Under the pieces are notes generated by a model. That model was not told where the DNA came from and searched no databases. It saw only the letters and a list, made by a program, of their open reading frames with translations. A stretch of 63,414 nucleotides of DNA, the filler included, from Reclinomonas americana ATCC 50394 (Eukaryota): the NCBI GenBank assembly GCA_048213135.1. It is 15 parts of 15 records of this genome, joined end to end, with 100 filler letters (N's around TTAATTAATTAA, not from the genome) between each part and the next. Parts side by side here need not be neighbours in the genome. Positions count along the whole stretch, not along the records: positions 1 to 9,057 come from AFZH01016820.1; 14 more parts are not named here. One strand, 5' to 3'. Shown piece by piece: positions 3,210 through 48,600 of the stretch. Position 1 is the first letter of the stretch, and each line of letters begins with the position of its first letter. The position numbers and the translations under genes were made by a program.

Positions 3210-6200
3210 ATGTCGGTGTGTTTGTTTGTGTGCATTCTCACTCTTCCCTCCTCCTCTGTGTGTGCTCACTGTCCTTGTGTCAGTTCTCTGTGAATGTGAG
3301 TGCGGCGCATGATTCATCGCTGTCGGTGGTGGTGGAGGGCATGTCGGCCATGTCCACTCTCGCTGACTTGCTGCACGAGGCCACACGCTTGCTGCGTGGG
3401 AAGAGTGGGGATGAGCAGATGGAGATTGTAGGGGTGGAGAAGCCGGTGCCGTACAAGATGGCCAAGGCTGATGTTTTCGAGCTGGAAGACCTTGGCATCA
3501 ACTCATCAACACATCTTGTTGTCCGTCTGACACTTGGCGTGGCGCTGCAGTCGAGCGGAGGGAGTGGGAATGGAAGGTGTGTCTGGGATGTGTTTGTGAA
3601 TCATCCTCTGTGCAAAGCATGCAGCTCACTCTCCCGTCTCCGCACAGCAACTCGGAGCGAGTGACTCGGTTTGTTTTGCTTGCCTTCGTCCTTCTCTCTC
3701 CCCTGCTTGCTCTTTCTGTGATGCTGACAGCACTGAGTGCACAGCATGATCAACTCGCAGCGCATCACCATAGCCTTTGAGGTGGTGGAGGAGGCCGTCC
3801 GTCTGCGCTGTCAACGCGCGCTGGCGCAGTTCAGTCGCGATCATCCCGGCTTTGATGTGCGAGCGTGGGTGCCGAGCTTCACGCCTGCTGGCGTGCGTGC
3901 GGCGGCAGTGAAGGCGTGGCGCGAGCGACATGCTCCACTCCATACTGTTCGGGTTGCACTTTTCAAGGAGAAACAACCGGCGGCGTTGGCCTGGCGTGCT
4001 GCATTTGACGCCGACCCTTCGTCCGACCCTCCGTGTTCCGGACTCGACACGACGGCGCTGCATGCCATCATGCTGTATGGTGGCTTTGTTGAGGATGACG
4101 GTCGCAAGCTGCTGCTGGTTGACGATACTGATGAACGCAAGGCGGTGGAGGAGCTGAATGACGTGAGAAAGGCATTGGCGCACAAGGACCTTGTGCTGAC
4201 GGATGCCACTGTACAGCAGTACCTTGGCGACGGTGGTATCTACTTCTCCATCCTCTCTCGACTGCAGTTGACGGCTGACGAGCGAGCTCGATTCTCTGCT
4301 CGCATCTGTGAGGCGCGTCACGCTCGACACATTGTGGACACATTCGAGGAGCGACTGCACCGACTGGCTGTACGTGAGCTTTCGTTCTACCAACATGACG
4401 AAAGTGTGCGCAAGGACATGCAGATGTATGTGCCTCTGTTGTGCTCCCGTGAGCGTGACGTCTCCGCGAGTGACAAGATGACGGATCTTTTGACGGAGGT
4501 GGATGCATTCCTCTCCGACACCAACACCACCCAGCGTGTACTGGTGCTGTTTGGCAACAGTGGTGCCGGCAAGACCACCACCATGTCGGTGCTGGCTGAA
4601 CGTGCATGGCGACAGTGGCAGACGAGAGAGAGCAGGCGAGTGCCTGTGCGTGTGCCTCTTGGTGCTCTGCGCAATGCCGATGAGCGATTGTTGGAGGAGG
4701 CACTGGAGCGACTGTCACCCGAGTTGGGATTCAGTGAGTCGGATGTGCGACGGTTGAAGGAGGAACCACTGCTGTTGTTGCTTGACGGATATGACGAGTT
4801 GTACCGTGGTGTGAATCTGTTTGTGAAGAACCAGCTGGACGTGTGTCGCGATATGAAGGTGATTATCACTTGTCGTGGCGATTACGCACTGACGGCACTG
4901 GGCGGAGTGACACAGTATCGACGGTACTTTGCACCAGTGGATGCACGAGGGCAGTCGTGCTTGCAGCAACTGATGGAGCGACACATTGCGCCGTTCAATA
5001 AGGAACAGATTGAGGAGTACTTAGAGCGACTGGTGCAAGTTGGCGGTGATAATGGTGACGGTGAAGTGCGATGGTCCACTGCCGAGGAGTACATTCGTGC
5101 ATTGAAGAGTGTACACGGACTGGATGCGCTGGTGTCGAATCCATTCCTGCTGACAGTGGTGGCTCGTGTTTTGCCGCAGTTGGTTGCGAGTGGCGTGCAG
5201 CGACCGACTCGGTGTGATGTGTTCGACCGATTCATCCGACAGTGGATTGGGAGGGAGCAGGAGAGGCAGACGCGTCTTGGTGCGGAGCGTGTGCCGAGTG
5301 AGGAGACGTGTCTCTCATTTTGTGAGGGACTGGCACGGTTGATGCATGAGAGGAATGTGGTGCGCGTGTCTGTGACGGAGAGTCGGTCAGGCAATGGTGC
5401 GGAGGAGGAGGATGACTTTGGCGGCGCTCCACGCGCCTTGCGACGAGTGGAAGAGGGACCGTTCGACAAGTTCCTGGGCGAGAAGAACCAGCATGTGCGA
5501 GCGTGCTGTCCGATTGTGCGACGGTTCGGGACGACGCAGTGGGGATTCGTGCACCTGTCGTTGCTGGAGCACTGTGTGGCACGGCATGTGTTTGCGTGGG
5601 AGACGTGGGATGAGGAGAGGAGGTTGACGGTGCAAGATGTGCAGCAGCATGTGTTGGCAGTGCGACTGCTGAATGATCGACCATCACTGGTGGAGCAAAT
5701 GGCCGAGGTGGTGCGACGATCACCTGCGTTGCAAGCGAGACTGTGGGAGATGATTGAGTTGTCACGCGAAGTGGATGAGGAGCGAGTGGTGACGGCAGCC
5801 GCGAATGCAGCGACGGTGTTGTGTGTGGCGCAAGTGTCGTTTAGTGGGCGAGATCTGTCGGGTGTGCGAGTGAGGTGTGCGGATTTGAGAGATGCGGTGA
5901 TGCACAGGACGGTGTGGAGGGGGGCGGATTTGCGAGGGGTGAATGTGTGCATGGCGTATGCGAGGGAGGCGGATTTCAGAGGGGCGGATGTGACGGGTGT
6001 GAAGTGGCCGAGGAAGCCGATGTTGGGGCACACTGATTGGGTTAACTCCGTTGCCGTTACTCCCGATGGCCAGTTTATTGTGAGTGGCAGTGCGGACATG
6101 ACTGTACGGGTGTGGTCTGTGACCAGTGGCGAGGAGGTGCGTCGACTGGAAGGCCACACGAATTGGGTGTGTGCAGTGGCAGTGACGCACGATGGCCAGC

Positions 6201-7960
6201 ACGTTGTGAGTGGCAGTGGAGACAAGACTGTACGAGTGTGGTCACTGGCGACTGGCGAAGAGGTGCGACGGTTTACGGGGCACAGCAGTCAGGTGAACTC
6301 TGTCGTTGTTACTCCCGATGGACGGTTTGCTGTTAGTGGCAGCTGGGATAAGACAGTGCGCGTATGGGCATTGGTCACTGGAGAGGAAGTGCAGCGGTTG
6401 GAAGGACATACTGATGCAGTGATGTCAGTTACTATTACTCCCGATGGCCACCACATTGTGAGTGGCAGTAGGGACAAGACTGTACGGGTGTGGTCGCTAG
6501 CAAGTGGCGAGGAAGTGCGACGGTTTCAAGGGCATTCTAGATGCGTGAATTCGGTTGCCATCACTCATGATGGACAGCAAATTGTGAGCGGGAGCGACGA
6601 CGAGACGGTGCGGTTGTGGTCACTTTCGGGTGGAGAGGAAGTCCGACAGATGAATGGTTATCTGAGAGAAGTGCATACTGTTGCTGTTACTCCCGATGGT
6701 CGCCACATTGTGAGCGGGAGTCATGACAAGGTGGTGCGACTGTGGTCTGTGGCAAGTGGGGAGGAAATTTGCCGATTCGAAGGTCATACTCAAGAGGTGC
6801 TGTCTGTCGCCGTCACCCCCGATGGTAAGCACATTGTGAGCGGGAGCCGTGACAAGGTGGTGAGAGAATGGTATTTGGCAACTGGCGAGGAGACGCGACG
6901 ATTCGAGGGGCACACTCGAGAGGTGTTGTCTATCACGATCTCCCACGACGGTCTGCACGCAGTAAGTGGGAGCAGAGACAAAATTGTGCGAGTGTGGTCG
7001 GTGACGAGTGGTGAGGAATTGCGGCGATTGGAGGGACACAGGGGTGAAGTGCACTATGTCGCCATTACTTCCGATGGTCAGCACATTGTTAGCGGGAGCA
7101 GAGATATGACAGTGCGAGTGTGGTCGATGGACAGTGGGCTTGAGATTATGCGATTTGTAAGACACACTGATGGCCTAGATTCCTTCGCGATCTCTCTCGA
7201 TGGTCGACAAATGGTGAGCGCTTACGTGGACAGCACGGTGCGAATGTGGTCGCTGACGAGTGGCGAGGAGTTGCGACGGTTTGAGGGGCATTCCGAGCAG
7301 GTATCATGTGTTGCCATCACTCCCGACTGTCAGCGTGTTGCGAGTGCAAGCGCCGATGGGACGGTTCGAGTGTGGTCTGTGAATAGTGGAGAAGAGGTGC
7401 GACGGTTTGAGGGACACACGCATTATTTGCAATGTGTCGCCTTTACCCCCGATGGTCAGTACATAGTGTGCGGGAATGAGGACTTCACTGTGAGAGTGTG
7501 GTCTCTGGCGACCGGTGAGGAAGTGCGACGGTTGACTGGACACAATGGTTACATTATTTGTGTGTTTGTCACTTCCGACGGTCAGCACATTGTGAGTGGC
7601 AGTTCGGACATGACTGTACGGGTGTGGTCACCGGCGAGTGGCGAGGAGGTGCGACGCTTGGAAGGACATACTGGTGAGGTCCTGTCTCTCGATGTCACGC
7701 TGGACCGTCAGCATGTTGTTTGTTGGACAAGAGACAAGTCAGTTCGAGTGTGGTCCCTGGCGAGTGGAGACGAGGTGTGGCGATTCCACGGTTTCATGGC
7801 TGGAATTTCTCGTGTTGTTGTTGTTGTAAGTGATATGTGCGCCCTTGCGTACGGCAAGTCGATATTTCTGTGGAAGTGGCACAGAGATCAGCAGGGGCAC
7901 CTGCTGGAGCGAATTTACGGCACATTCATTCCGGACTTTACAGGCGCTCTGTGTGAGTAA
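3210..7960 (+). CDS. NLR-like STAND protein copy A: ubiquitin-like - HEPN - NACHT - pentapeptide repeats - 14x WD40 (~1511 aa)
   Basis: Model join(3210..3215,3284..3576,3648..3668,3745..7960); all introns GT-AG and in phase, and exons 1-3 are the same size as in copy B. Walker A GNSGAGKT (~4553), Walker B LLLLLDGYDE, NPFLL motif, wHTH-region GFVHLSLLEH, pentapeptide run FSGRDLSGVRV...ADFRGADVTGV, GH...WS WD repeats. HEPN-like DTTAL...VRKALAH (RxxxxH at 4166-4183). Confidence 0.9.
6026..7789 (+). repeat. 14 tandem 126-bp coding WD40 repeats (sensor of NLR copy A)
   Basis: 42-aa units of consensus GHTxxVxSVAVTPDGQHIVSGSxDxTVRVWSLASGEEVRRLE. Confidence 0.95.
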
Positions 7961-8348: not shown

Positions 8349-9157
8349 CTACACTTCTTCGGGGAGCAACTGATCCTGCCGCGCTGCCTCCAGATCGGCC
8401 TCCAGCGCGGCTTCCAAATCGGCCTCGAATGGCTCGTCCATTTCAACCTCGGCGACACGACCAGCACCTGCACCTTGCGCGTCGACTTGCATGCCTTGTG
8501 CTGCACGAGTGTGCTCAATAGGAGACAAGAATGCAGGACAACTCGAAACTAGAGGCACACACCTTCCAATGCCGGCAACGCGCCAGCCGCCATCGCCTGT
8601 CGCAGCACCTCTGCCTTCCGTCTCAGATCATCCTCCGTCCACAACGAGTGCCCGAGTTGCTCAGCCTTAGAGAGAAGAGAAACGAAGTGAGTATCAAGCC
8701 TTCCAAACACAAATACACCACCCCACTATCTTACACATGAAGCAGGTCATGCGATGATTCTCGCCTTGTGTGTCTCTCTCGCCCACTTTCTCTCTTTTCT
8801 TGCCACGCCGTTCTCGCTCTCCCAATTCTCTCTCTCTCTCTCTCTGTCAATTCTCAGACTTCATCATCTTTCATCTCACAGAGAGCTAAACAGAATCAAG
8901 AGAGAGAGACACACAATCTTACGACAAACTTCAACTCGAGCGAACAATCACAGAAAAAGCAACATGTGCGTGCAACACAGCATATGACACGCACGGGGAG
9001 CAATCGACACACCACTCTGCACAATCTCCCTCTCTCTCTTCTCCCTCTCCTCTCCCTNNNNNNNNNNNNNNNNNNNNNNNNNNNNNNNNNNNNNNNNNNN
9101 NTTAATTAATTAANNNNNNNNNNNNNNNNNNNNNNNNNNNNNNNNNNNNNNNNNNNN

Positions 9158-9193
<36 letters not shown>

Positions 9194-11438
9194 CTAACTT
9201 TTCCCCTGACTCTCAATCCCTTTTCCTCTCATTTCTCTCTCTCGCTCTCCTCTTCTCGCCCCCCCCCCTTCCCCCTCTCGCGCACCTTGACATATTCCAC
9301 AAATCTTCGCATAAAACTGACAAAGTGATCGGCCTTGCGAATATTGCCGGGCACCGCCTGCTGCAGAATGTCGTCCGGCAGCACGGGATTCGCCATTAGC
9401 CGATCCGCTCGATTCACACCAGCCGACGCCAGTCCCTCGACCAGCCGTCTGTACTCGCGGTTGAGGCGATCGGCGTCCCGCTCGCGCATCCTGCAAGGGA
9501 GGGAGAGGGAAGGGGAGTGAGAGAGAGGGAGAGAAAGAGAGAGAAGAGAGAGAGGGAAGAGAGAGAGAGAGAAGAGAGAGAAGAAAAAGAAAGCGAGCGG
9601 AAGCACCGAGCTGCACCCTTGCCAAAGAGAAGACATCGATCGCAACTCTCGAATCTTCCGATCCAACCGCGTCAAACAGGCCACACTCGAGCGCAGCACC
9701 GAGTGATCCACATTGACACTCAGCGACTCGATGCACACATTGTCGATATTGTGCGCCTCGTCAAACACCACAATCGTGTCGCGCGGCAACTCGTGCGAGA
9801 CGAGACCGGAGATCTTCGGGTCCAGCAAGTAGGCGTAGTTGTAGACCACCACGTTGGCCACTTGGATCATGTGGCGGGCGAGAAAGTACGGGCACCAGCC
9901 GTGACCGCGGCCGAATTCGCGGATTTCGGCGAGGGTGTACACGCCTGCAATGATATGGGGAAGGGGGATGTGAGAGAAGGTGGATGAGGGGTGACAATGA
10001 GAGTGAGAGAGAGAGAGAGTGAAAGAGAGTGAAAGGCAGACAGGCACACACGCAGAAAAACAGGCACACTGACATAAACAGGGGGTTTTGGAGAGAGAAA
10101 GGAAGGATCGAGAGAGATCGCGTGCGAATTTGAGAGATAGCGAGGCACATACACAGACAAACAGGCAGACAGACAGACAAATACAAGGGAGAGAGAGAAA
10201 GGAGTTTGAGAGAGAGCGAGGGACCGCACAGGCAGACAAACAGACAGACAGCAGAGAGAGAAAGCCAGGATCGAGAGAGATCGCGTGCGAGACCGTTTGA
10301 GAGAGAAAGTGAGGCACAGACGCAAACACACAGACAGACAGACAGAAACATACAGCAAGAGAGAAAGGGGCTTCTCATTTGCAATTACTCTCTAAGTAAA
10401 TCAATCAAGAGTAGAAGCAGGGCATTTGCAAAGGAAACAGATCAAAGTGGCCGCAGAAGGATCGAGAGAGAGCAAGGTACAGACTAAAATACACACGAAC
10501 AGAGAGAGAAAGCCAGGATCGAGAAAGATCCCATGCAAGACCGTTTGAGAGAGAAAGAGACGCACAGACGCAAACACACAGACAGACAGACAGACAGACA
10601 GACACAGACAGCAAGAGAGAAAGAAAGGATTGAGAGAGATCGCGTACGTGTTAGAGAGAAAGAGGCACAGACACTGACAGACAGGCAAAATATATACACA
10701 GAAAGCGAGAGAGGAAAAGAAAGAAAGAAGGCGAGAGAGGAGAGAGAGAGAGATAGAGAGAGAGAGACAAAAGGAAAGAGAGAAACACCACCGCTCACAA
10801 TATGCAGTGAAGGCAACTGACAACACCAAAAGCTGTTGCCCGCCCCTTTCACTCTCCTCCCTGCTCTCCCTTCCCCCTCCCTCTCCCCCACCCTTTCCCT
10901 TTCTCTCTCCCACCCTTCTCCCCCACCCACCTTGCGGCAATATCGCCTCCTTCCCCGTCCTCTCAAACTCCTCATAGTAATTGCACAACCGCAACCCATG
11001 ATGCCCATCCTCAATATCATCCACCGCCATGGGCGCCATCTCCACATCCTCCTCACCATCCGCACCGCCGGGACGCACCACCCTCTGCACCGCTCCCACC
11101 CGCTCGCGCACCCACGACGCCGTCATCGAGCGGCACTTGGAGTCCACCAGCTGCCCGTCGCCCTCGGCGCTGACCTCGGGGTGGATGCACAGATTCTTGC
11201 GCGCCGATAGACCCACCGCCAAGAACGGCGCCGCCTGTATGCCCTCCTTGCGCATCTCCTCGGTGCGGTACGCCAGCAGGCGCTTCATCTCCTCCAGACA
11301 CTTTTCCATCTCCGGCACCGTGCGCGTGCAGTACACCAATTTGCCGCGCTCCGGGTGCACCGCCATGTACGAGGTGATGAGGGAGAGGAGGCTGATGGTT
11401 TTGCCGGTGCCCGAGGGCATTTCCAGGATGCAGTGGCC
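8349..11438 (-). CDS. ERCC2: TFIIH/NER Fe-S DNA helicase XPD (Rad3), partial; first exon(s) and helicase domain 2 not present (assembly gaps)
   Basis: Exons 11438-10931 (GHCILEMPSGTGKT...LSARKNLCIHPEV...DSKCRSMTASWVR), 9944-9647 (WCPYFLAR...YLLDPKI...VVFDEAHNIDNVCIE), 9490-9286 (NPVLPDDIL..AVPGNIRKADHF) and C-terminal exons 8665-8563 (EQLGHSLWTEDDL) and 8500-8349. Confidence 0.95.
9058..9157. other. Artificial scaffold spacer N44-TTAATTAATTAA-N44 (first of 14)
   Basis: Identical 100-nt spacers at 9058, 12916, 14067, 18481, 21011, 23523, 25012, 32048, 34012, 35285, 37027, 38875, 49466 and 61431. The 12-mer places stops in all six frames. Confidence 0.98.
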
Positions 11439-12184
11439 CTGGAGAGGGGGAAGGAGGAGAAGGGTGAGGGAGGGGGAAGGGGGGAAAAGGGTAGGGGAGA
11501 GTAAGGGGGAAGGAGAGAAAAGGGGGGTGGGAGGGGGTGGTCTTCAAGACTTATGTGCTTGATTGCGAGTCGATGTGCTGTGGACTCTCTCTCTCTCGCG
11601 GAGAGTGAGAAGGAAGGGCAAGAGGGAACTCATGCACACAGAAACAGAGAGGGAGAAACGAAGACAACAGCAGTGTATTTCCGCGGAAAGGTGAGAGTGA
11701 AGGCAGGAGTGTCAGCAGGAGCTTGTCACACGCTCTCTCTCTCTCTCATTTGCCTCGCCTCGCGGAGTCAGCATCCGTCGTGCTCCGCTGTCATCTCTGT
11801 CGTTCTCTTGCTTCTGTGTATTCTTGCGCGTAACTATGACTCTGATCACAGGTAAACCGAACTCCACAGGAGTCTCTCTCCCTCTCTCTCTCTGTTTCGC
11901 GGAGAGTGAAAAGGAAGGACAAGAGGGAACTCAAGAACACGAACACGCACAAACATAGAGAGAAACGAAGACAACAGCCGCGGAAAGGTGAGACTGAAGA
12001 CAAGAGTAAGCAGGAGCTTGCCACACGCTCTCTCTCTCTCTCTCCCATATGCCTTGTGCCTGCATCCGACGTGCTCCGCTGTTGTCTCTCTCGTTGCTTC
12101 ATTTCTCTTTTGCTTTCTGTGTATTCTTGCGAGTGAACATCACTCTGATTGGGTGTGTGACGAGCTCCACAGGAGTCTCTTTCT

Positions 12185-12860: not shown

Positions 12861-13419
12861 CTCTCTCGTCACATCCCTCCCTCTCTCACACACTCTCTCT
12901 CTCTCTCTCTCTCTCNNNNNNNNNNNNNNNNNNNNNNNNNNNNNNNNNNNNNNNNNNNNTTAATTAATTAANNNNNNNNNNNNNNNNNNNNNNNNNNNNN
13001 NNNNNNNNNNNNNNNATGGTGTGTGAGAGAAGAGTCTAATCAGTTCAATCATTCACTTGTCTCCCTCACTCACACACTCACAAGAGAGAGAGAGAGAGAG
13101 AGAGAACAGTGTGAGAGGAGACTCCTTGCTCTCTTCTCACTCAATCACTCACCACACTGTTCTTCTCTCTCATACTCACTGTCTCTGTGCCTTCCTCATT
13201 CTCCCCACCTCCCTCCTTACTTCCGTTCTCTCTCTCTCTCTCTCTTTCTCTCTCAGAGAGAGATAGCAGCTGGGAAGGGAGGCTCCTTGCTCTCTTCTCT
13301 CTCAATCGCTCTCACTGTTGTCTCTCCCCACTCACTCTCTCTCGCTCACACACAGACTCGCTCTCGCAGTCTCATTCTCCAATCCTCCTTGGTTCCTGCC
13401 TTCCTTTCTTTACCGTTCA

Positions 13420-14066: not shown

Positions 14067-14869
14067 NNNNNNNNNNNNNNNNNNNNNNNNNNNNNNNNNN
14101 NNNNNNNNNNTTAATTAATTAANNNNNNNNNNNNNNNNNNNNNNNNNNNNNNNNNNNNNNNNNNNNCTTCGTAGTGTATGGAGGCGATGAAGGAAAAGAT
14201 GGCAAGAGGTTCTTTTCCCTTTCTTTGCGTGGAGAAGGAGAGAAGAAGGAGAGCGGCTCGTACTCTATTTAACCTCATCTTGCTCCTCCTCCTCGGTTGG
14301 ACAACTGGGAAGCAGAAGAAAAGAGAAATAGACGGCACGCAGTTCTCTCCACTCTCTCCGTCTCTTTATCTGATCGCCTTTCTTGTGACAGGAGAGAGAA
14401 GCCGTTGATTACTTTTCGTCCAAAGCATGAGAAGAGACAGATGGCTTGCGGCCCACCTCCTCATCTTCCTTTCTCGTCTTTCTTCAGCAAGATTAGAGGA
14501 GGAAGAGGGGTGTCTTTGTCATTTCTAGACCTTCACCTCCTCAGTTAGAACGCGAAGCGATGAGAAGGATTTGACTCTTCCTCCTCCTCCTCTATTGAAA
14601 AACTGGGAAGCAAGAAGAAAGTGATTCCTCTCCTCTCCTCCGTTGATTGTTGGAAGAAGACAACAAGACGAAGGAGACTGTGAACAGATCGTTTCTTTTC
14701 TCACTTTCCGCTCTCTCCAACAATTGTTGGAACGACGGGGGAAACAAGTCGGCACCTCATTTCTCTCTTCTCTCCCCTTATTCATTCTTCACTTCTATTC
14801 TGCTCTTCTCTTCCGTCCATCTCCTTCATTCTATTCGACTCTTCTCTTCTGTCCATCTCCCTCTGTTTT

Positions 14870-18340: not shown

Positions 18341-21300
18341 ATGAGAAGAAGTCGGTGTTTTTGTGGTGTTTTTGTTGTTCTTTGTGGAGTGTGGCTATTA
18401 GTGTTGCTGAGTGTGGCGAGTGCGAGTGAGTCGGGCGCGGAAGGTGTTGTGTGTGTGTGTGAGTGTGTAAGTGAGTGAGANNNNNNNNNNNNNNNNNNNN
18501 NNNNNNNNNNNNNNNNNNNNNNNNTTAATTAATTAANNNNNNNNNNNNNNNNNNNNNNNNNNNNNNNNNNNNNNNNNNNNGAGAGAGAGAGAGAGAGAGA
18601 GAGACTCTAAAGACTGGCTAGATTTGTATCCGAGTGTCTCAGGAGCGCAGTTCTTGTGCATTGCTCTCACAGCACTCACTCTTCTCTCCCTCTCTCCGCC
18701 CCACAGAACCTCCCTGTCGGCTTCCGTCGCTCGTTCGATCCACTGCCGCCACCGCCACCATCGGTGGCCAACAGCAACGACGAGGCGGATGGGTATTGCT
18801 CCGAGAGCAATGAGTGTGGGCAGGGATTGTGCAGTGGTGGAGTGTGTGTGTGGTGAGTGCGCGGAAGGGAAAGGGGGAGGAAGGGGAAAAGGAGAAGGGA
18901 GGGAGAAGGGAGGGAGAAGGGAGGGAGAAGGGAGGGAGAGGGAAAGGGAGAGGGAAGCAAGAAAGGGAGGAGTTTGGTGGTGAGAGACCGAGCGAGAACA
19001 TAGGAGGCGAAAGCATGAGTGACACTGAGCATGCTGAGCAGTTTGTCAGTGAGTGCAGGGTGTTGCAGTGATTGGGAAGCGAAGACGTGCGAAAAGATAA
19101 GCGTGAAACAGCGGGTGAGCTTTTCATCCCGTTGTGCGCGAGTAATGGTGTGTGCACAGAGAGAGAGAGAGGAAGAGAGAGAGATGGATGAAAGAGAGAG
19201 GGGGTGGGGAGAGGGAAGCAAAGAAAGGAGAGAGAATTGGCACTGAAGGCGTTGGCCCGTGTGAGATCGACTGCGAACCCACACTGAGCTTGCTGAGCAG
19301 CTTGTCAGTGAGTGCAGTGGCAGTGACTAGACGCGTGGTCGTAAGAAAGCTGAGCATGGTTCAGCGATTAAGCTTGTCAGCCAGTTGTGTGCGAGAGATT
19401 TCTGTGTGCACAGGGAGAGAGCGTGTGTGTGCAAGAGAGAGAGAGAAAGAAGAGAAAGAGAGAGACTGAGAGACATAGGGGCTCAGAGACTGAGAGACTG
19501 AGTGAGAGAGAGAGAGAGCGATAATGAGATATATTATTTAGTGAGAGATAAGAGAGTGAGAGTGTGTGTAAGAGTGCGACTGAGAAGAATTCTGAGAGCT
19601 CTTCAACTTGCTGGTTCGCGTGGGGGTGAGCACTGCAGGTTTGTGAGTTGATGAGGCATCGGAGAGTGTGTGGGAAGAATGAAGAGAGAGTGAGCGTGAG
19701 CATTATCTCTCGTTATTCTTATTGTGTGTCGCGCAGCATGGCTGGATTCGCCGGTCGTCGGTGTCAGTGTGCGCAGGATCGCTGGTGAGTTCCCACGTCT
19801 CGCTTCCTCCACTTATGCTCGTAATTGACTGTCGCCTGCAGTGCGCCGAATGGTCGGTGCGACCCGAATGCGTCGGATGGTCGCTGCATCTGCAGCAAGG
19901 GATGGACGGGTCGTGACTGCTCGTGCCGCAAGGATTCCGATTGGTGAGAGGAATGGGGGGAAGGGGGCAAGGGGGGAAAAGGGGTAAAAGAGGGAGAGTT
20001 GTGTGGAGGGGCAACTGAAAGTGTGAGAGTGTGAGAGACTTTGCGATGAGATGAACGCCGACGCAGTGACTGAGAGGATGAGCGATGCATGCGAGTGAGC
20101 AATAGCGAGGCTGCATGCAGCGGTTCATTTTTTGCGAGGGAGAGAGAGAAAAGAGAGAAAGGAGAGAAAAGAGAACGAGAAAGTAAGAAAAAGAGAGTGA
20201 GGGAAAGAAGGGAAGGATAAAGTGAGAGAAAGAGTGGGGAGAAGAGGGAGAAAGCAAGAGCACAAATTGCTCGTTCCCTCTCTCTTTCTTCACGTTCTCT
20301 CTTTCTCACACACAGTCACCTTCTCAATTCTCCTCTCGTTGTCAGTTTCTGTCTCTTCGCGCGCGCGCTCTCTCTCTCTCTTCTCTCTCTCCCCCCTTCT
20401 ACTGTGAGGATCAGAGTCACCCGCAGAGCAATTTTCAGGAGTTGATGATCGCCGTGCGAGTTTGAGTGTGAGGGCCATGTAGAGTGTCGTTGAGCAGCTG
20501 AGTGTTGTTCGAAAGAAGTGATGCACTTTCTCTGACTTGTACCTGGCAGTGGTGTGAAGCAGAACCGCGGCGTGTGCTCGGACGTCGGCATTGACGGCGA
20601 GTGCTTGTGCCGACCTGGATTTACTGGCCCAGGATGGTGCGTTTCTGTTATGAGACGTCGACTGACGGCTGTATCTCACTTCTTTCTCTCTTCCTTCTTA
20701 TATCCGACAGCCTGTGCAACTTGTCCACCTGGTGAGTAACAAGAAAGAGTTCCGTCATACGTCACTTTTCTCTCATTGTCCCCCAGTGGTGTGCACGGCA
20801 CGTGCGACATGAACACCGGTGCCTGCATCTGGTGCGCCATTTCATCCGTGCAAGACCTCTCCTACGCATTTCTCCTCACCCACGTGCCTTGCAGTCACCC
20901 GGGCTACGCCGGCAACGACTGCAGCAAGCTGTCTTGCGATCCGCAGAACCCGCTCTCTTGGTTCGTTTTCCCCTCCCATCTCCACACCGTAACATCACGC
21001 TCACAACGCGNNNNNNNNNNNNNNNNNNNNNNNNNNNNNNNNNNNNNNNNNNNNTTAATTAATTAANNNNNNNNNNNNNNNNNNNNNNNNNNNNNNNNNN
21101 NNNNNNNNNNCCATCGCACGCGCTCACCGCTGTCGTCTGTAGGGTGATTTCGGGCGTGTGCGACGATGTCGATGGCTCCTGCCTGTGTTTCCCGCCCTTC
21201 ACCGGCAAGGACTGCGCGTGTCATGCGTTCCGCGACTGGTGCAGTGACTCTTGTCGCGCGAGAGAATCGTGCACTTGGTGCTCACTGCATCTCCACGCGC

Positions 21301-23224: not shown

Positions 23225-24305
23225 GAGTAAAGAAGGAGTGATTTGTGTACCTCGGAAGGGGGGAAAGGGATGAGAAGGGAAGGGAGATAGGGAGGAGAGG
23301 GAGAGGGGAAGGGAGAGGGGAAGGGAGAGGGAAGGGAGAGGGGAAGGGAGAGGGAAGGGAGAGGGAAAGGAGAGAGGGAGAGGAAGGAGGAGAGAAGGGA
23401 AGGAAGGGCAAGGAAGGGCAGGGAAGTGAAAGGAAAGGAACGGAAGTGAAAGGAAAGGATAGGGAAGGGAGAGGGAAGGGAAGGGAGAGGGAAGGGAAGG
23501 AGAGGGAAGGAGAGGGAAGGGANNNNNNNNNNNNNNNNNNNNNNNNNNNNNNNNNNNNNNNNNNNNTTAATTAATTAANNNNNNNNNNNNNNNNNNNNNN
23601 NNNNNNNNNNNNNNNNNNNNNNGAGGGAAGGGAGAGGGAAGGGAGAGGGAAGGGAAGGGAAGGGAAGGGATGGGAAGGGAGGAGAGGGGGGAGAGGAGAG
23701 GAGAGGGGAGGCACAGGAAAGGAGGGAAAGACATACTTGTTGCAGATCAACAACTCGCTCTTGAAACTTGTCAGAAACTTTAATATGCATCGCCGTTTGA
23801 CCCACTGGCAAAGACGCTCATGTCTCTTCTCTGTGCTGCTGTATGCTTGCAGCGTCAGAAGCACTGGTTTAGATCATTCAGAGGGTCTATTGTTTGCATT
23901 CTGCGTTCAAAATCAGCCAGAAACAACAATTCATTCACCAACGAACAAGCCACAGCTGTCTTGATCATCAACACAAACGTCAGTCTTGAGAGAGCAGCAC
24001 GTTCTTTTGTGTTCGTGTTCCCTCTTGGAGATTTGAACAGGTCGAGAACTGCGATCTTCATCGCATAAGCATGGTTGCTGGTGCGTGAAGGACATTGTGC
24101 AGCTATGCTGCTGTGTAGATTTAGTACAAGCTGTTGTTGTTGTTGTTGTTTCTACCAGGTGATGATCAGCGCTAGCATGCAGCTGTGATGCTCTTGGGAA
24201 TGGCAAGTTGTTGCTGCTGTCTGCTCACCTCTTTAATCGCCCAAATATGCACAGTGATTCATTGCGTCGTGGATAGCCACACGATCTCCTTCCCCCTCTT
24301 CGCGC

Positions 24306-38870: not shown

Positions 38871-39014
38871 GTGCNNNNNNNNNNNNNNNNNNNNNNNNNN
38901 NNNNNNNNNNNNNNNNNNTTAATTAATTAANNNNNNNNNNNNNNNNNNNNNNNNNNNNNNNNNNNNNNNNNNNNTTGTGGGGGACGAGGAGGGAAAGGGG
39001 AGATGCGTTTTTTC

Positions 39015-42646: not shown

Positions 42647-45600
42647 CTACCGCCTGCGCTGTGCCAATTCGAAAGCGCGTAGAATATCCTTTGCCAATTG
42701 AGAATGCTGATCATGATGCGTGTCATGAAGAACCTCACGCATCACTACCAACAACTCTCGAGACAGTCGCTCGGCTTCGGCGAGATTGCCGCTGGCGCGA
42801 ATGCAGCTGGCGAGACTGTACATTGACCGCAGTGTGTCTGCATGTCTGTCACCAAGCACTTCACGCTGCAAGTCCAACACCTCTCGATAGAGTCGCTCAG
42901 CTTCGGTGAGATTGCCGCTGGCGTGCATGCAGCTGGCGAGACTGTACATTGACCGCAGTGTGTCTGGGTGCCTGTCACCAAGCACTTCACGCTGCAACAC
43001 CAACAGCCCCCGAAACAACCGCTCGGCTTCGACGAGATTGCTGCTGGCGTGCATGCAGCTGGCGAGGTTGTGCATGGACCGCAGAGTATCTGCATGTCTG
43101 TCACCAAGCACCTCACCCTGCAACGTCAACACCTCCCGAAACAGTCGCTCGGCTTCAGCGAGATTGCCGCTGGCGTGTATGCAGCTAGCGAGGCTGTGCA
43201 TTGACCGCAGTGTGTCTGCATGTCTGTCACCAAGCACCTCACGTCTCAACGCCAACACCTCCCGATACAGTCGCTCCGCTTCGGCGAGATTGCCTCTGTC
43301 CTTGATGCAGTTGGCGAGATTGTACATGGACGTCAGTGTGTCTGGATGCCTGTCACCAAGCACCTCACGCTGCACCTCCAACACCTCCCGATACAGTCGA
43401 TCGGCATCGGTGAGATTGCCACTCCCCTTGATGCAGCTGGCGAGATTGTTCATGGACCGCAGTGTGTCTGCATGTCGGTCACCAAGCACCTCACGCTGCA
43501 AATCCAACACCTCTCGATACAGTCGATCGGCATCGACGAGATTGCCGCTCGCCTGGATGCAGATGGCGAGACTGCACATGGACGACAGCGTGTCTGCATG
43601 TCGGTCACCAAGCACCTCACGCTGCAACCCCAGCACCTCTCGATACAGTCGCTCGGATTCGGCGAGATTGCCGCTGGCGCGAATGCAGCTGGCGAGACTG
43701 TACATTGACCGCAGTGTGTCTGCATGTCTGTCACCAAGCACTTCACGCTGCAACCCCAGCACCTCTCGATACAGTCGCTCGGCTTCGGCGAGATTGCCGC
43801 TCGCCTGAATGCAGCTGGCGAGACCGTACATGGGGCGCAGTGTGTCTGCATGTCTGTCACCAAGGACTTCACGCCGCAACACCAACAGCCCCCGAAACAG
43901 TCGCTCGGCTTCGGCGAGATTGCCGCTGGCGCGAATGCAGCTGGCGAGACTGTACATGGACCGTAGAGTATCTGCATGTCTGTCACCAAGCACCTCACCC
44001 TGCAACGTCAACACCTCCCGAAACAGTCGCTCGGCTTCAGCGAGATTGCCGCTGGCGCACATGCAATTGGCGAGATTGTGCATGGGTCGCAGTGTGTCTG
44101 CATGTCTGGTACCAAGCACCTCACGCCTCAACACCATCACCTCCCGATACAGTTGCTCGGCGTCGGCGAGATTGCCGCTGGCGTGTATGCAGCTAGCGAG
44201 GCTGTGCATTGACCGCAGTGTGTCTGCATGTCTGGTACCAAGCACCTCACGCCTCAACACCATCACCTCTCGATACAGTCGCTCGGCTTCGGCGAGATTG
44301 CCGCTCGCCTGGATGCAGATGGCGAGATTGTTCATGGACGACAGCGTGTCTGGATGCCTGTCACCAAGCACCTCACGCTGCAACGTCAACACCTCTCGAT
44401 ACAATCGCTCGGCTTCGGCGAGATTGCCGCTCGCCTGAATACAGCTGGCGAGACTGTACATGGGGCGCAGTGTGTCTGCATGTCTGTCACCAAGGACTTC
44501 ACGCCGCAAAGTCGACACCTCTCGATACAGTCGCTCGGCTTCGGCGAGATTGCCGCTCGCGTGCATGCAGCCGGCGAGACTGCACATGGACGTCAGTGTG
44601 TCTGGATGCCTGTCACCAAGCACTTCACGCTGTAAATCCAACACCTCCCGAAACAGTCGCTCAGCTTCGGCGAGATCGCCACTGGCGTGCATGCAGCCGG
44701 CGAGACTGTACATGGACCGCAGTGTGTCTGCATGTCTGTCACCAAGCATCACACGCTACACCTCCAACACCTCTCGATACAGTCGCTCAGCTTCGGCGAG
44801 ACTGCCGCTGGCGCGCATGCAGCCGGCGAGACAGTACATGGACCGCAGAGTGTCTGCATGTCGGTCACCAAGCACCTCACGCTGCAACTCCAACACCTCT
44901 CGATACAGTCGCTCAGCTTCGGTGAGACCGCCGCGTGCCTCAATGCAGCTGGCGAGACTGCACATGGACGACAGCGTGTCTGCATGTCGGTCACCAAGCA
45001 CCTCACGCTGCACCTCCAACACCTCCCGATACAGTCGCTCAGCTTCGGTGAGACTGCCGCGTGCCTCAATGCAGCTGGCGAGACTGCACATGAATGTCAG
45101 TGTGTCTGCATGTCGGTCACCAAGCACCTCACGCTGCGACTCCAACACCTCTCGATGCGGTCGCTCGGCTTCGGTGAGACCGCCGCGTGTCTCAATGCAG
45201 CTGGCGAGACTGCACATGGATGCCAGTGTGTCTGCATGTCTGTCACCAAACACCTCACGCTGCAACTCCAACACCTCTCGATACAGTCGCTCCGCTTCGT
45301 CGAGATTGCCGCTCGCCTGAATGCAGCAGGCGAGATTGTTCATGGTCACCAGCGTGTCTGCATGTCTGTCACCAAGCACCTCTCGCATCAACGTCAACAC
45401 CTCTCGATACAGTTGCTCGGCTTCGGCGAGATCGCCGCGTGCCTCAATGCAGCTGGCGAGATTGTTCATGGACCGCAGTGTGTCTACATGTCTGTCACCA
45501 AGCACCTCACGCTGCACCTCCAACACCTCCCGATACAGTCGATCGGCATCGGTGAGATTGCCGCTGTCCTGGATGCAGATGGCAAGATTGCTCATGGACG

Positions 45601-48600
45601 ACAGCGTGTCTGGGTGCCTGTCACCAAGTACCTCACGCCTCAACACCAGCACCTCTCGATACAGTCGATCGGCATCGGTGAGATTGCTGCTGTCCTGGAT
45701 GCAGATGGCGAGATTGTTCATGGACGACAGCGTGTCTGGGTGCCTGTCACCAAGCACCTCACGCCTCAACACTAACACCTCCCGATACAGTCGCTCGGCT
45801 GCGGCGTGATTGCCACTCTTAAAGATGCAGTTGGCGAGATTGCCCATGGACGACAGCGTGTCTGGATGCCTGTCACCAAGCACTTCACACCTCAACGCCA
45901 ACACCTCTCGATACAGTCGCTCGGCTTCCGTGAGATTGCCGTTCGCCTTGATGCAGATGGCGACATTGTTCATGGACATCAGTGTGTCCGGATGCTTGTC
46001 GCCAAGCACTTCACGCATCAACGCAAACTCCTCCCGATACAGTCGCTCAGCTTCGGTGAGATTGCCGCTCTCCTGGATGCAGGCAGCGAGATCGTGCATG
46101 GACCGCAGTGTGTCCGCATGCCTGTCACCAAGCACCTCACGCCTCAACACCAACACCTCTCGATACAGTCGCTCGGCTTCGACGAGATTGCCACTGTCCT
46201 CGATGCAGTCAGCGAGATTGTACACGGAATGCAGTGTGTCTGGATGCCTGTCACCAAGCACCTCACGCCTCAACCCCAACACCTCCCGATACAATCGCTC
46301 AGCTTCGACGAGATTGCCACCGTCCTCGATACAGATGGCGAGATTGTTCATGGACGACAGCGTGTCTGGGTGCCTGTCACCAAGCACCTCATGCCTAAGC
46401 CCCAACACCTCTCGATACAGCCGCTCGGCTTCGACTAGACGGCCAACACTCTGCAGACAGTTCGCGCGAAGGTGCACGAGGTCAGAGACTATGATCACAT
46501 CATCTTCTGGTTCAACAGTTGCCAGATGCACCTCCAGATAGTCCGCAGCATCACCAGCAAGGCGCACGCTTGTGAGCAATTTTGTCACGCACAGTGCTCT
46601 TCTGTGGTTCACATCTCGGTCCACTCCGTCACTGCTCTGTTCGCGAAGCCACGCAGCACACGCTACTGCAACATCCGCACTGAATTCGCTAACGGGGAGC
46701 CGATTCTCAGCAAACTCCGCCAATTTTGACACGCCGTTCAGTCGCATCCTTGTCACAGAAGGTGGCGTGTTGCTCTCGCCCCCTCCACGCTGCAACACCG
46801 GCAATAGCCCATTCCACAACAGCTGCAGACACGGACGAATGTCGCGCAGCATGACATCGTCGATACTGTACTCGTCAGCCCAAGCCAGTCCACACAGAAC
46901 GACGTCCGACACTGCGTCACGATAAAGACAGAGCTCTCTCTCACGTTCTCCCGATGTCAGCCACTCCATCACGATGTCGTGCACTCCGTACTCCACTCTC
47001 GATGGTGACACAGCAGATTGTTCTCCGCCCCTCACCACCGTTCGATACAGCGTGTCGCACGACTGTGACATCGTGCACTGCACCAACATTGACCGCCGAA
47101 GCTTGTCCAATGCCTGAACCACATCGCCGTCATCGTCACGAGGTTGATCGACTCTCCCTTCAGACGCAAGCAGTTGCAACCAATCCGGAGATGCTGGATT
47201 CGACTCACGTCCCACCAGCCGAACCATCAAAGCAACAGTCCGAGCCGTGACGTGTACTCGCATTTGCTGGAGCGCTGTGACCAAGAGCAGCACCTGCCGC
47301 ATCAGCGGCGTGCACTCAGCCAGATTCTTGCTCATTAGCTCATCAAGCGCCAGTACTCGCGTCTCAGCCAGACGTGCCTGCAACTCACTGCTGGCTAGCG
47401 TCTCCAACGACTGTCGTGCGAGCATCCTAAAAGCATCATTTTCCGTGAGTCCTTCGTCTGCACGGAGAGCAAAGCCCACACAAGAACAATCAACTCACCT
47501 CAAACAGAGAGCCACGCGGAACGCCTGTGGCCTCTCCACCGTCGCCGCCGTCACCTCAAGGCATATCTCCTCCGGTGCGTCAATCTGCTGCCGCACATAC
47601 TGCGCCACATCGTCGGCCTCCACATCGCCCACCGACATGTGAAGCACAACAGCAGAGCTCAACAAAGCTGAGCGTTGCAGTTCGTCGCCAACTCGCTTGA
47701 ACCGCGTCGTCACGAGCACAAGCGGGGCGACCATGAACGGGGAGCCTGCGTGAGAGCAGAAAACAAAACGGTTGGTGACTCGAGCAGGCAAATGTATGTA
47801 CACGCACTGCGAGAAAAGTTGCACACACAAGTACGCACAAGCGAGAAACCGTAGAACACATACAGTACCACGCGCAACTCATTGACAAAAGTGCAAGATG
47901 CACGTACCTGCACTGGCGTGTCCGCGAACACCTGTGACTCGCAAGACATCCAACACTTGCTTCCCCGTGCCGACATTGTCGAGCAACATCACGCCGCGGC
48001 TGTTCTTCATGAAGTGGCTGAGTCGATTGCGCATCATGTCCACATTGCTGTCCTTCTCCCACGACTCAATCTCCGCCAACAAATGTGCGTTGGATTGCAC
48101 AGATGTCATGGCACTGGCGAATCCTCGCAGTCCACTACAGAGCACCTCCGTCGTCTGCGTCGAGACAGAAAAAATCGAATCAGAAACAATGTGCACGCAT
48201 GACAGTCTTCATCCACTTCGACTCACCGATGTGAACTGGCTCTCATCAGCTGTGTGGCCACGCATGTCCGAGTACAGCGCCGAACCGCGCCACTTCTTTC
48301 GCTCCATCTCCGACACAATCAGCTCGGCCAGTGTCGTCTTCCCACTTCCACCCTCGCCAGAGAGCACAATTACTCCGGGTGTGGCATCTGGAGAGAACAA
48401 GCCACAAACGGGGGCATGTGAGCAACAAGAACCAAGAGAAGATGCGGCGCCTCATCTTCTCACCAGCCTCGCATTCCAACAATCGCTCCGCCAGTCGCTC
48501 AGCCTCCGCGACGCGGCTGGGGAATGGAAACCCATCCAACTGGTCCACGTTTCTGAACACGATTGCCCGGCTCACTGGTGTCGCAGCTGTCGCCAGACAC

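What the first reader, a model, noticed from the sequence alone, without database searches (positions are those of the whole stretch)
3210..3745. Ubiquitin-like domain added in front of the HEPN-NACHT-WD40 protein via micro-exons
Seen: a 6-nt exon (ATG TCG), a 293-nt exon and a 21-nt exon, identical in size in both paralogues, add MSFSVNVSAAHDSSLSVVVEGMSAMSTLADLLHEATRLL...VFELEDLGINSSTHLVVRL. The ORF track misses this. Known: the strand-strand-helix pattern and LEDLGINSSTHLVVRL resemble ubiquitin's LSDYNIQKESTLHLVLRL (beta-grasp fold). There is no terminal GG, so it is not conjugatable. Inference: Ubl-HEPN-NACHT-pentapeptide-WD40 is an architecture I do not recognise. The Ubl could be an integrated decoy for pathogen ligases or DUBs, a proteasome or p97 handle that keeps a toxic RNase at low level, or an oligomerisation module.
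Basis: partly seen in the sequence, partly recalled or inferred. Interest (0 to 1): 0.78.

Follow-up and report, generated by a model that had tools for sequence, protein, structure and literature searches.

The report
Small N-terminal domain on NLR-like genes
Two related immune-receptor-like genes of an unidentified eukaryote carry a real, conserved upstream coding exon that probably adds a small, possibly ubiquitin-like, domain to the front of the protein, but neither the fold nor the splicing could be confirmed here.

Summary
The described sequence is there. Both copies have ATG TCG followed by GT, a 293-nt open exon, a 21-nt piece, and an AG acceptor one base before the long ORF. Piece sizes are the same in both copies, while the spacers differ by 5, 8 and 3 nt.

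The 293-nt exon is coding: dN/dS is 0.18, against 0.19 for the main ORF, and 22 of 36 differences are at third positions.

A database fragment, P0006, starts with exactly the predicted exon 1/2 junction.

Not shown:
- Splicing to the NACHT-pentapeptide-WD40 ORF. No RNA run was listed.
- The 21-nt micro-exon. Its donor GTTTGT is off-type, and skipping it also stays in frame.

The two "paralogues" lie on separate contigs glued by artificial linkers.

The fold is unresolved:
- No Pfam or PDB sequence match was found.
- The AlphaFold model is weak (pLDDT 59) and fold searches returned no ubiquitin-like chain.
- Language-model neighbours are mostly ubiquitin/Rad60-SLD clusters, at lead-level scores only.

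A ubiquitin-clan domain at the N-terminus of an NLR is already known (Crinkler domain on fungal NLRs). This is at best a new variant of a known kind. Interest is moderate.

The parts
3210..3215 (+). Copy 1: start codon plus Ser codon, the coding end of exon 1, followed by donor GTGTGT
   Evidence: ATGTCG+GT is kept in both copies, while the 200 nt upstream are unrelated (113/233 aligned columns identical). P0006 begins with Met-Ser joined directly to the exon-2 residues.
3216..3283 (+). Copy 1: intron 1 (68 nt, GT..CAG)
   Evidence: It is 63 nt in copy 2, with 50/74 aligned columns identical. The donor type GTG matches the XPD-calibrated introns.
3284..3576 (+). Copy 1: exon 2 (293 nt). It encodes an ~85-residue alpha/beta domain (possible beta-grasp) and a Gly/Ser-rich linker.
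   Evidence: The frame is open. dN/dS against copy 2 is 0.18. Predicted elements are E2-8, E12-18, H26-41, E46-51, H64-69, E77-86.
3577..3647 (+). Copy 1: intron 2 (71 nt, GTGTGT..CAG)
   Evidence: It is 63 nt in copy 2, with 52/72 columns identical. If retained, it leads to a stop at 3662-3664.
3648..3668 (+). Copy 1: putative 21-nt exon 3 (uncertain)
   Evidence: 20/21 bases are identical, and the one change is synonymous in the proposed frame. The donor GTTTGT is off-type, and skipping this piece also keeps the frame.
3669..3744 (+). Copy 1: intron 3 (76 nt), or the 3' part of a single 168-nt intron. It is unusually conserved.
   Evidence: 67/76 columns are identical, against 102/146 for introns 1 and 2 together (P 1.5e-4). 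It carries indels of 1 and 2 nt. It ends in the only AG between the in-frame stop at 3734-3736 and the ATG.
3745..7960 (+). Copy 1: exon 4. It encodes a helical HEPN-like domain, NACHT, pentapeptide repeats and 14 WD40 repeats, and includes the stop codon.
26153..26158 (+). Copy 2: start codon plus Ser codon, followed by donor GTGAGG
26222..26514 (+). Copy 2: exon 2 (293 nt). It encodes the same domain; 86% of the residues are identical to copy 1.
26578..26598 (+). Copy 2: putative 21-nt exon 3 (uncertain)
26672..30917 (+). Copy 2: exon 4 (HEPN-like, NACHT, pentapeptide, WD40), including the stop codon

Best explanation
Each of the two genes has a short 5' exon set: a start exon ending in ATG TCG, a 293-nt exon, and possibly a 21-nt exon. 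Spliced to the long ORF, these put an ~85-residue compact alpha/beta domain and a ~22-residue Gly/Ser linker in front of a helical HEPN-like domain, a NACHT NTPase, pentapeptide repeats and two WD40 propellers.

Shown: the 293-nt exon is coding and is under the same constraint as the main ORF.

Inferred:
- It is part of the same protein as the NACHT-WD40 ORF.
- The fold is a ubiquitin-like beta-grasp of a lineage-restricted sequence family.
- It is not conjugated, because it has no conserved Gly-Gly and sits at the N-terminus.
- It acts as a 'header' or adaptor module of an NLR-type switch. In that model, ligand binding by the WD40 part lets the NACHT module oligomerise, which brings the N-terminal effector domains together. 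HEPN RNases act as dimers (established knowledge of the family).
- The small domain, on its flexible tether, either shields the effector in the resting state or recruits a partner.
For: Exon 2 is coding:
- dN/dS is 0.18, with 22 of 36 differences at third positions. The other frames have dN/dS above 1 and carry stops (P 7e-6).
- The first 250 codons of the main ORF give 0.19.

The spacers behave as introns:
- All are GT..AG.
- Their lengths differ by 5, 8 and 3 nt, while exon sizes are identical.
- In copy 2 the genomic frames of exon 2 and the long ORF differ, yet the spliced frame is intact in both copies.
- Donors of introns 1 and 2 are GTG-type, like the three XPD-calibrated donors GTGGGT, GTGCAG and GTGCGC.

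The start:
- ATGTCG+GT is kept although the upstream DNA is unrelated.
- The first 19 exon-2 codons differ by 3 synonymous changes and 1 replacement.
- P0006 starts with Met-Ser fused to the exon-2 residues, and P0005 has a 3-residue lead.

The link to the long ORF:
- An in-frame stop lies 3 codons (copy 1) or 6 codons (copy 2) before the ATG.
- A single AG lies between that stop and the ATG.
- Its phase fits the exon-2 donor.
- Retaining intron 2 gives non-conserved ends.

The fold:
- The order of elements is strand, strand, helix, strand, strand, helix, strand within 87 residues.
- In the ESM Atlas search, the named sets in the best 30 hits were ubiquitin/Rad60-SLD at ranks 11, 20 and 23.
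- In the named-only search with copy 2, 7 of the 10 listed rows were ubiquitin-type.
- P0005 gives a weak hit to the SIN1 Ras-binding domain, E 0.069.

Precedent: the Crinkler Ubl header comes before toxin and NTPase domains, and the Crinkler domain occurs on fungal NLR N-termini.
Against: No RNA evidence of any junction was obtained.

The 21-nt exon:
- Its donor is GTTTGT in both copies, unlike the three calibrating donors.
- The stretch 3648-3744 is 87/97 identical, against 70% for introns 1 and 2. The model does not explain this. It could mark an internal promoter or 5' UTR for a transcript that starts at the ATG at 3746.

The fold:
- No ubiquitin-clan or Crinkler Pfam hit appears even at E 10. 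The only hits are DUF7016 (E 0.2) and RBD_SIN1 (E 0.069).
- No PDB sequence hit at E 10.
- The single-sequence AF2 model has pLDDT 43.
- With 3 sequences, one model reaches 59.2 and the other four 36-39, with pTM 0.44.
- Foldseek gave 0 matches at E<=0.001, best 0.27, and no ubiquitin-like title among the 50 rows listed.
- VIA-align against 48,161 chains gave a best Z of 5.4 to an S6 permutant, then Rpb7-N and S24e. No ubiquitin-like chain is in the 50 rows.
- Atlas scores are at or below 0.90, which the tool calls a lead only.

Only 3 true relatives were found among 1.84 billion representatives. All are short fragments.

The two copies are on separate contigs, so their relation is not known.
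Confidence: 0.5

Rival explanations
1. The domain is real and fused to the NLR-like protein, but it is not a beta-grasp. It is another two-layer alpha/beta sandwich: a ferredoxin-like beta-alpha-beta-beta-alpha-beta core with an extra N-terminal strand. That fold has the same order of elements.
For: The only model available aligns best from residue 10 onward to Rpb7-N, S24e and S6-type sandwiches. Z is 4.8-5.4 with rmsd 2.6-3.5 over 60-74 residues. Foldseek lists S6 permutants among its best rows. No ubiquitin-clan profile matches.
Against: The model is weak: pLDDT 59, and one model of five. The tool states that Z under 8 is within the range of common arrangements. ESM-Atlas neighbours with a family are mostly ubiquitin/Rad60-SLD, for both copies.
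Confidence: 0.25
2. The 293-nt exon belongs to a separate small gene, or to an alternative short transcript, that encodes a stand-alone ~100-130 residue protein. The NACHT-WD40 protein then starts at the ATG at 3746 or 26673.
For: There is no RNA evidence for the exon 2 to exon 4 joint. The ATG at 3746 opens the long ORF and is preceded by a conserved 97-nt stretch (87/97 identical) that could be a promoter or 5' UTR. All database relatives of the domain are short fragments, and none was found in proteins of 171-2000 residues.
Against: Without splicing at the conserved exon-2 donor, the frame ends at different, non-conserved places in the two copies: after 29 more codons in one and 5 in the other. 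Only about 170 nt separate exon 2 from the ATG. Donor, acceptor and phase are all kept in both copies. The short database fragments are frameshifted or unspliced reads of the same exon, so they say nothing about full length.
Confidence: 0.2
3. The upstream open frame is a decaying remnant or a chance ORF with no product.
For: ORFs of 80-160 codons are common in all frames of this G+C-rich sequence.
Against: dN/dS is 0.18 with a third-position excess (P 7e-6). There are no indels in 293 nt, although all three spacers have them. Further family members exist in public data.
Confidence: 0.05

Closest known systems
Crinkler (CR/CRN) N-terminal 'header' domain, Pfam PF20147, Ubiquitin clan. It occurs on CR effectors and at fungal NLR N-termini.
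   Same: It is a small N-terminal domain with a predicted ubiquitin-like fold. It is placed ahead of a toxin-type domain and a P-loop NTPase (review PMC5289972, passages). It is also reported at the N-terminus of fungal NLRs (PMC9815663, passages). It is not conjugated.
   Different: There is no PF20147 match at E 10. I see no LxLFLAK motif, and only a loose likeness between the last strand here and the HVLVxxP motif (motifs as given). The NTPase here is a NACHT with pentapeptide and WD40 repeats, not the CR NTPase+HTH+REase set. The original paper (Zhang et al. 2016) was not held.
HEPN-NACHT proteins of animals (DZIP3/hRUL138-type and CXorf38-type HEPN fused to NACHT, TPR, DEATH)
   Same: A HEPN-type domain sits N-terminal to a NACHT NTPase with repeat sensors, in lineage-specific expansions (PMC3710099, Table 1 and section 16 passages). 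Here an R-x4-H motif is kept in both copies and in a third NLR-like gene of the window.
   Different: HEPN membership is only sub-threshold here (HEPN_Swt1 E 0.034; DUF4559 E 0.00054 for the third gene). The passages I read do not report an extra N-terminal ubiquitin-like domain for these NACHT fusions.
Integral ubiquitin-like domains next to HEPN domains (sacsin; some KEN-domain proteins)
   Same: One polypeptide holds a non-conjugated N-terminal ubiquitin-like domain together with a HEPN domain (PMC3710099, passages).
   Different: In sacsin the two domains lie at opposite ends of a giant chaperone with no STAND NTPase. No sequence relation was found here.
Fungal and bacterial NACHT-WD40 NLR-like STAND proteins
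   Same: The NACHT core is followed by highly similar 42-residue WD40 repeats: 126-nt tandem units and Pfam hits. The N-terminal module is variable.
   Different: Pentapeptide repeats lie between NACHT and WD40. The N-terminal 260 residues of the long ORF have no relative at the sensitivity used.

Membership tests
Ubiquitin-like beta-grasp superfamily (Pfam Ubiquitin clan) | Significant profile match to a member family (ubiquitin PF00240, Rad60-SLD PF11976, Crinkler PF20147 and others) | tested here: not met
   hmmscan against Pfam-A at E up to 1 and up to 10 was run on both copies, P0005 and P0006. The only hits were DUF7016 (E 0.2-0.25) and RBD_SIN1 (E 0.069). PDB phmmer gave 0 hits at E 10.
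Ubiquitin-like beta-grasp superfamily (Pfam Ubiquitin clan) | Beta-grasp fold: a mixed sheet of order 2-1-5-3-4 crossed by one helix | tested here: inconclusive
   AF2 gave pLDDT 43 with a single sequence and 59 with a 3-row alignment. Foldseek PDB and VIA-align wide list no ubiquitin-like chain, with best E 0.27 and best Z 5.4. The model is too weak to decide, and the coordinates could not be inspected.
Ubiquitin-like beta-grasp superfamily (Pfam Ubiquitin clan) | Order of elements strand-strand-helix-strand-strand-short helix-strand within about 75-90 residues | tested here: met
   The elements are E2-8, E12-18, H26-41, E46-51, E55-56, H64-69, E77-86. This is not specific, because a ferredoxin-like core with an extra strand has the same order.
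Conjugatable ubiquitin-type modifiers | C-terminal Gly-Gly exposed or exposable after the last strand | tested here: not met
   There is no conserved Gly-Gly after the last strand. Copy 1 has a GG 12 residues further on inside the linker, and copy 2 has none.
Crinkler header domain (PF20147) | Profile match, together with the LxLFLAK and HVLVxxP motifs | tested here: not met
   No PF20147 hit. The motifs, as named, are not present.
Crinkler header domain (PF20147) | N-terminal position ahead of toxin-type and NTPase domains | tested here: met
   This holds under the spliced model with the domains found. The toxin-type identity of the second domain is only weakly supported.
NACHT-type STAND NTPase (NLR-like) | NACHT profile match above the curated cut-off, with a Walker A motif | tested here: met
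   PF05729 scores 37.1 and 34.7 bits against a cut-off of 26.7, at residues 264-428 and 264-379 of the long ORFs. The P-loop is GNSGAGKT.
NACHT-type STAND NTPase (NLR-like) | C-terminal repeat sensor | tested here: met
   WD40 PF00400 gives 14 and 13 stretches, at 454.9 and 440 bits. Pentapeptide PF00805 scores 25 and 29.1 bits against a cut-off of 20.2.
HEPN superfamily | Conserved R-x4-6-H motif | tested here: met
   The V-R-x-A-L-x-H motif is invariant in both copies and in the N-terminal ORF of the third NLR-like gene (pairwise E 0.001).
HEPN superfamily | Profile match above threshold to a HEPN family, or a four-helix HEPN fold | tested here: inconclusive
   HEPN_Swt1 gives E 0.034 and 14.9 bits against a cut-off of 27.5, in 2 of 3 members. 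There is no hit.

The most novel reading that the evidence does not exclude
The exon encodes the founding members of a new, sequence-orphan beta-grasp 'header' family. This family sits in front of HEPN-NACHT-pentapeptide-WD40 receptors in a poorly sampled eukaryotic lineage. If so, the Crinkler-type layout (Ubl header, toxin, NTPase) and true NLR receptors share modules well outside fungi and oomycetes. The header would control when the RNase-like effector is released or whom it recruits.
Probability: 0.3. Interest if true: 0.55.

Novelty: new variant of a known kind. Interest (0 to 1): 0.4.

Why it matters
If the domain is a beta-grasp fused to the receptor, this would be a second, independent case of a ubiquitin-type header on an NLR-like death or immunity switch, after the Crinkler domain on fungal NLRs. 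The organism's XPD helicase is at most 53% identical to any protein found.

That would support the view that N-terminal modules of NLR-like proteins are drawn from a common pool of conflict-system adaptors across eukaryotes. It would also offer a small, testable handle on how a HEPN-type effector is kept silent.

In practice, gene models that start at the first ATG of the long ORF would miss about 107 residues.

If the fold or the fusion fails, what remains is an ordinary lineage-specific 5' exon.

Tried and rejected
Searches that found nothing:
- RNA evidence: no RNA holder was listed for window:3000-8000.
- Whole genome: none is held for this window.
- Domain in proteins of 171-2000 residues: none.
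- Relatives of residues 1-260 of the long ORF among proteins of 772-2457 residues: none.
- Metagenome contigs with P0001: 577 pattern matches, none confirmed.
- Phage records, tblastn at E 10: none.
- PDB sequence searches: 0 hits for the small domain, 0 for the N-terminal 260 residues, and only chance-level rows for alignment A4.
- PADLOC and NCBIfam: nothing for the small domain or the first 260 residues.
- Rfam and tRNA scans of the window: nothing.

Steps that could not be made:
- Origin of P0005, P0006 and P0008: the cluster look-up could not be made. Whether P0006 is a transcript, a processed copy or a gene model therefore stays unknown.
- Earlier findings were not open.
- Zhang et al. 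2016 could not be read. My account of it comes from passages of the review PMC5289972.
- The complex predictor was not used, because I make no binding claim that it could settle.

Fold searches: no ubiquitin-like chain was listed by Foldseek PDB or VIA-align wide. The model is weak, so this absence decides nothing.

Reference ubiquitin-type sequences: I tried to obtain some for a profile-profile test by searching PF00240 in an E. coli record and the tool's 14 control genomes. It rang only below cut-off in one genome, so the idea was dropped.

Rejected ideas:
- A kinetoplastid-like genome without cis-introns. The XPD gene in the window has clear GT..AG introns of 986 and 126 nt.
- An alternative genetic code. 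This was raised by one in-frame TAG in the TPR gene. It is a single case, and both long ORFs are open under the standard code.
Full report
**What the window is.** The window is eukaryotic DNA of 48-63% G+C, rich in CT/GA microsatellites. It is not one stretch of chromosome. It consists of 15 contigs joined by N44-TTAATTAATTAA-N44 linkers. Copy 1 of the gene lies on the first contig (1-9057). Copy 2 lies on the eighth (25112-32047). Their relation (paralogues, divergent alleles or two strains) is not known. No whole genome is held. An XPD helicase fragment in the window is at most 53% identical to any protein found, with a jakobid as the best match. The organism is therefore poorly sampled.

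**The observation.**
- The coordinates are exact.
- In copy 1, ATG TCG (3210-3215) is followed by GT. A 68-nt spacer ends in CAG. A 293-nt open piece (3284-3576) ends in AAG|GT. A 71-nt spacer ends in CAG. A 21-nt piece (3648-3668) is followed by GTTTGT. A 76-nt spacer ends in CAG one base before the ATG at 3746.
- Copy 2 has pieces of the same sizes, with spacers of 63, 63 and 73 nt.
- Joining the pieces gives single open frames of 1511 and 1521 codons.
- Only these two copies of the small domain occur in the window (tblastn).

**Is the 293-nt piece coding?** Yes.
- The two copies differ at 36 of 293 positions, split 4, 10 and 22 over codon positions 1, 2 and 3.
- dS is 0.376, dN 0.068 and dN/dS 0.18.
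- In the other two frames dN/dS is 3.0 and 1.2, and there are 3-4 stops.
- The excess of synonymous changes has a binomial P of 7e-6.
- The first 250 codons of the long ORF give 0.19, so the constraint is the same.
- The structured part (codons 1-83) gives 0.14 and the Gly/Ser tail 0.44.

**Are the spacers introns?** Several lines say so for introns 1 and 2.
- All indels fall in the spacers, and each spacer differs by a non-multiple of three. As a result, the genomic frames of exon 2 and the long ORF agree in copy 1 but not in copy 2. The spliced frame holds in both.
- The XPD gene supplied calibrating introns by homology: a 986-nt intron (10930-9945, minus strand), a 126-nt intron (9616-9491), and a donor after 9286. 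The donors are GTGGGT, GTGCAG and GTGCGC. Two of the acceptors are TTGCAG|G.
- The donors of introns 1 and 2 (GTGTGT and GTGAGG; GTGTGT and GTGCAT) are of this type.
- The donor after the 21-nt piece (GTTTGT in both copies) is not of this type.
- The 21-nt piece is a multiple of three, so splicing exon 2 directly to the acceptor at 3744|3745 is equally in frame. The micro-exon is therefore unproven.
- The stretch 3648-3744 is 87/97 identical. Introns 1 and 2 together are 102/146 identical (P 3e-6). Spacer 3 carries 1-nt and 2-nt indels, so it is not coding. I cannot explain this conservation. An internal promoter or 5' UTR for a shorter transcript is one possibility.

**The start.**
- Similarity between the copies stops at the ATG. 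The 200 nt upstream are unrelated (113/233 identical), yet ATGTCG+GT is kept.
- Without this start, the first in-frame Met is residue 20 or 23 of exon 2. The 19 codons before it differ by three synonymous changes and one replacement.
- A search of 1,835,955,588 representative proteins gave 4 hits at E<=0.001. Three are true relatives, all short fragments.
  - P0006 begins with Met-Ser joined directly to the exon-2 residues, which is the predicted junction. It then runs out of frame, consistent with a one-base loss.
  - P0005 has a three-residue lead.
  - P0008 reads through an unspliced pyrimidine-rich acceptor.
- The fourth hit, P0007, is a 1793-residue repetitive protein at 26% identity. I take it as chance.
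- The origin of these fragments could not be looked up.

**The link to the long ORF.** This is inferred, not shown.
- In both copies an in-frame stop lies 3 or 6 codons before the ATG.
- Only one AG lies between that stop and the ATG, in a CAG|C context.
- It needs an upstream exon ending in phase 2, which exon 2 provides.
- If intron 2 is retained, the frame ends after 29 more codons in copy 1 and 5 in copy 2. There is therefore no conserved stop for a stand-alone product.
- No RNA run was listed.

**What the long ORF encodes.**
- NACHT: 37.1 and 34.7 bits against a cut-off of 26.7.
- Pentapeptide repeats: 25 and 29.1 bits against a cut-off of 20.2.
- WD40: 14 and 13 repeats.
- The first 260 residues have no Pfam, PADLOC, NCBIfam or PDB match and no relatives at the sensitivity used.
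- Residues 83-175 resemble the N-terminal ORF of a third NLR-like gene on another contig (48575-49249, minus strand; 24% identity, E 0.001).
- All three proteins keep V-R-x-A-L-x-H, that is, R-x4-H.
- Trimmed to this region, 2 of 3 sequences give a sub-threshold HEPN_Swt1 hit (E 0.034), and the third gene hits DUF4559 (E 0.00054).
- 'HEPN' is therefore plausible but not established.

**The fold of the small domain.**
- No profile or sequence method recognises it.
- AlphaFold2 with one sequence gave pLDDT 43.
- With the only clean alignment I could build (3 rows, A3), one of five models reached pLDDT 59.2 and pTM 0.44. The other four reached 36-39.
- Its elements are strand 2-8, strand 12-18, helix 26-41, strand 46-51, a bridge at 55-56, helix 64-69 and strand 77-86. 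This is the order found in beta-grasp domains. It is also the order of a ferredoxin-like sandwich with one extra strand.
- Foldseek against the PDB found nothing at E<=0.001 (best 0.27) and no ubiquitin-like title in the 50 rows listed.
- VIA-align against 48,161 chains gave 4 chains with Z>=5 and none with Z>=8. The best was an S6 circular permutant (Z 5.4, rmsd 3.3, 74 residues), followed by Rpb7-N and S24e. There was no ubiquitin-like chain. The tool states that such Z values are within the range of common arrangements.
- The ESM Atlas points the other way.
  - For copy 1, 25 of the best 30 hits are unnamed clusters. The named sets at ranks 11, 20 and 23 are ubiquitin/Rad60-SLD, at 0.89-0.90.
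  - For copy 2, restricted to named clusters, 7 of the 10 rows listed are ubiquitin, Rad60-SLD or TUG-UBL, at 0.86-0.89. The tool reports that 8 of the ten best hits with a family share a family or clan.
  - These scores are leads only.
- From memory, not from a call: the last strand and the turn before it resemble the C-terminal pattern of many ubiquitin-like domains.
- I put the beta-grasp reading at a little over one half.

**Comparison with what is known.**
- A ubiquitin-type domain in front of an NLR is not new in kind. The Crinkler domain of the Pfam Ubiquitin clan was found among fungal NLR N-termini (PMC9815663, passages).
- Crinkler effectors across eukaryotes are described as a Ubl header followed by enzymatic toxin domains. 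The commonest set is NTPase plus HTH plus REase (review PMC5289972, passages). The original paper was not held.
- HEPN domains fused to NACHT are known in animals (DZIP3-type and CXorf38-type). Sacsin combines an N-terminal ubiquitin-like domain with a HEPN domain (PMC3710099, passages).
- In the prokaryotic conflict systems of PMC7159879 and PMC8195603 (passages), Ubls appear as conjugation components and not as N-terminal domains of the STAND protein.
- Full-text searches for NACHT with beta-grasp (3 papers) and for HEPN with NACHT and WD40 (12 papers, 8 listed) turned up no description of this exact order of domains. I did not read those papers in full, and supplements were not consulted.

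**Verdict.**
- The exon is real and coding: about 0.9.
- It belongs to the NACHT-WD40 protein: about 0.7.
- It is a beta-grasp: about 0.55.
- The 21-nt micro-exon is used: about 0.5.
- The mechanism I propose is a non-conjugated header or adaptor on a flexible tether. It would shield a HEPN-like effector, or recruit partners to it, once the NACHT-WD40 switch oligomerises. This is inference by analogy.
- The finding is a moderate one. It is a useful correction of the gene model and a possible new sequence family of a known kind of N-terminal module.

Noticed in passing
window 9058-9157, 12916-13015, 14067-14166, 18481-18580, 21011-21110, 23523-23622, 25012-25111, 32048-32147, 34012-34111, 35285-35384, 37027-37126, 38875-38974, 49466-49565, 61431-61530: There are fourteen joints of the form N44-TTAATTAATTAA-N44. 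The window is therefore 15 separate contigs glued together, and the order and neighbourhood of genes across these joints mean nothing.
   Followed up: yes
window 42650-49249, minus strand: A third NLR-like gene lies here, in several exons. It has a HEPN-like N-terminal ORF (48575-49249) with V-R-N-A-L-M-H, a P-loop exon (48212-48451), a Walker-B-like piece (47882-48208) and an hhTTR motif piece (47498-47878). These are followed by about 29.5 near-identical 42-residue TPR repeats. The contig ends 216 nt upstream, so whether it also has the small N-terminal domain cannot be seen.
   Followed up: partly
window 44756-44758, minus strand: There is an in-frame TAG inside the TPR array, at a position where sister repeats have CAG (Gln). 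It could be a nonsense mutation or pseudogene, an assembly error, or a hint of TAG read as Gln. This is a single case, so it stays open.
   Followed up: partly
window 9286-11441, minus strand: This is the N-terminal half (residues ~35-365) of an XPD/ERCC2 helicase, cut off by the contig end. It has a 986-nt intron and a 126-nt CT-rich in-frame intron. The best identity is 53%, to a jakobid protein.
   Followed up: yes
window 3648-3744 and 26578-26671: The 21-nt piece plus the last spacer are 87/97 identical between the copies, against about 70% for the other two spacers. This high identity runs on into the first ~150 nt of the long ORF. It could be a regulatory element, an alternative 5' UTR or a conversion tract.
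   Followed up: partly
window 26153-26221: In copy 2, intron 1 is 63 nt and open, so an unspliced transcript would still read in frame from the same ATG with 21 extra residues. In copy 1 (68 nt) it would not.
   Followed up: no
window 57157-58671, plus strand: This ORF has a calponin-homology (CH) domain (E 1.4e-19). It lies among overlapping low-complexity ORFs.
   Followed up: no
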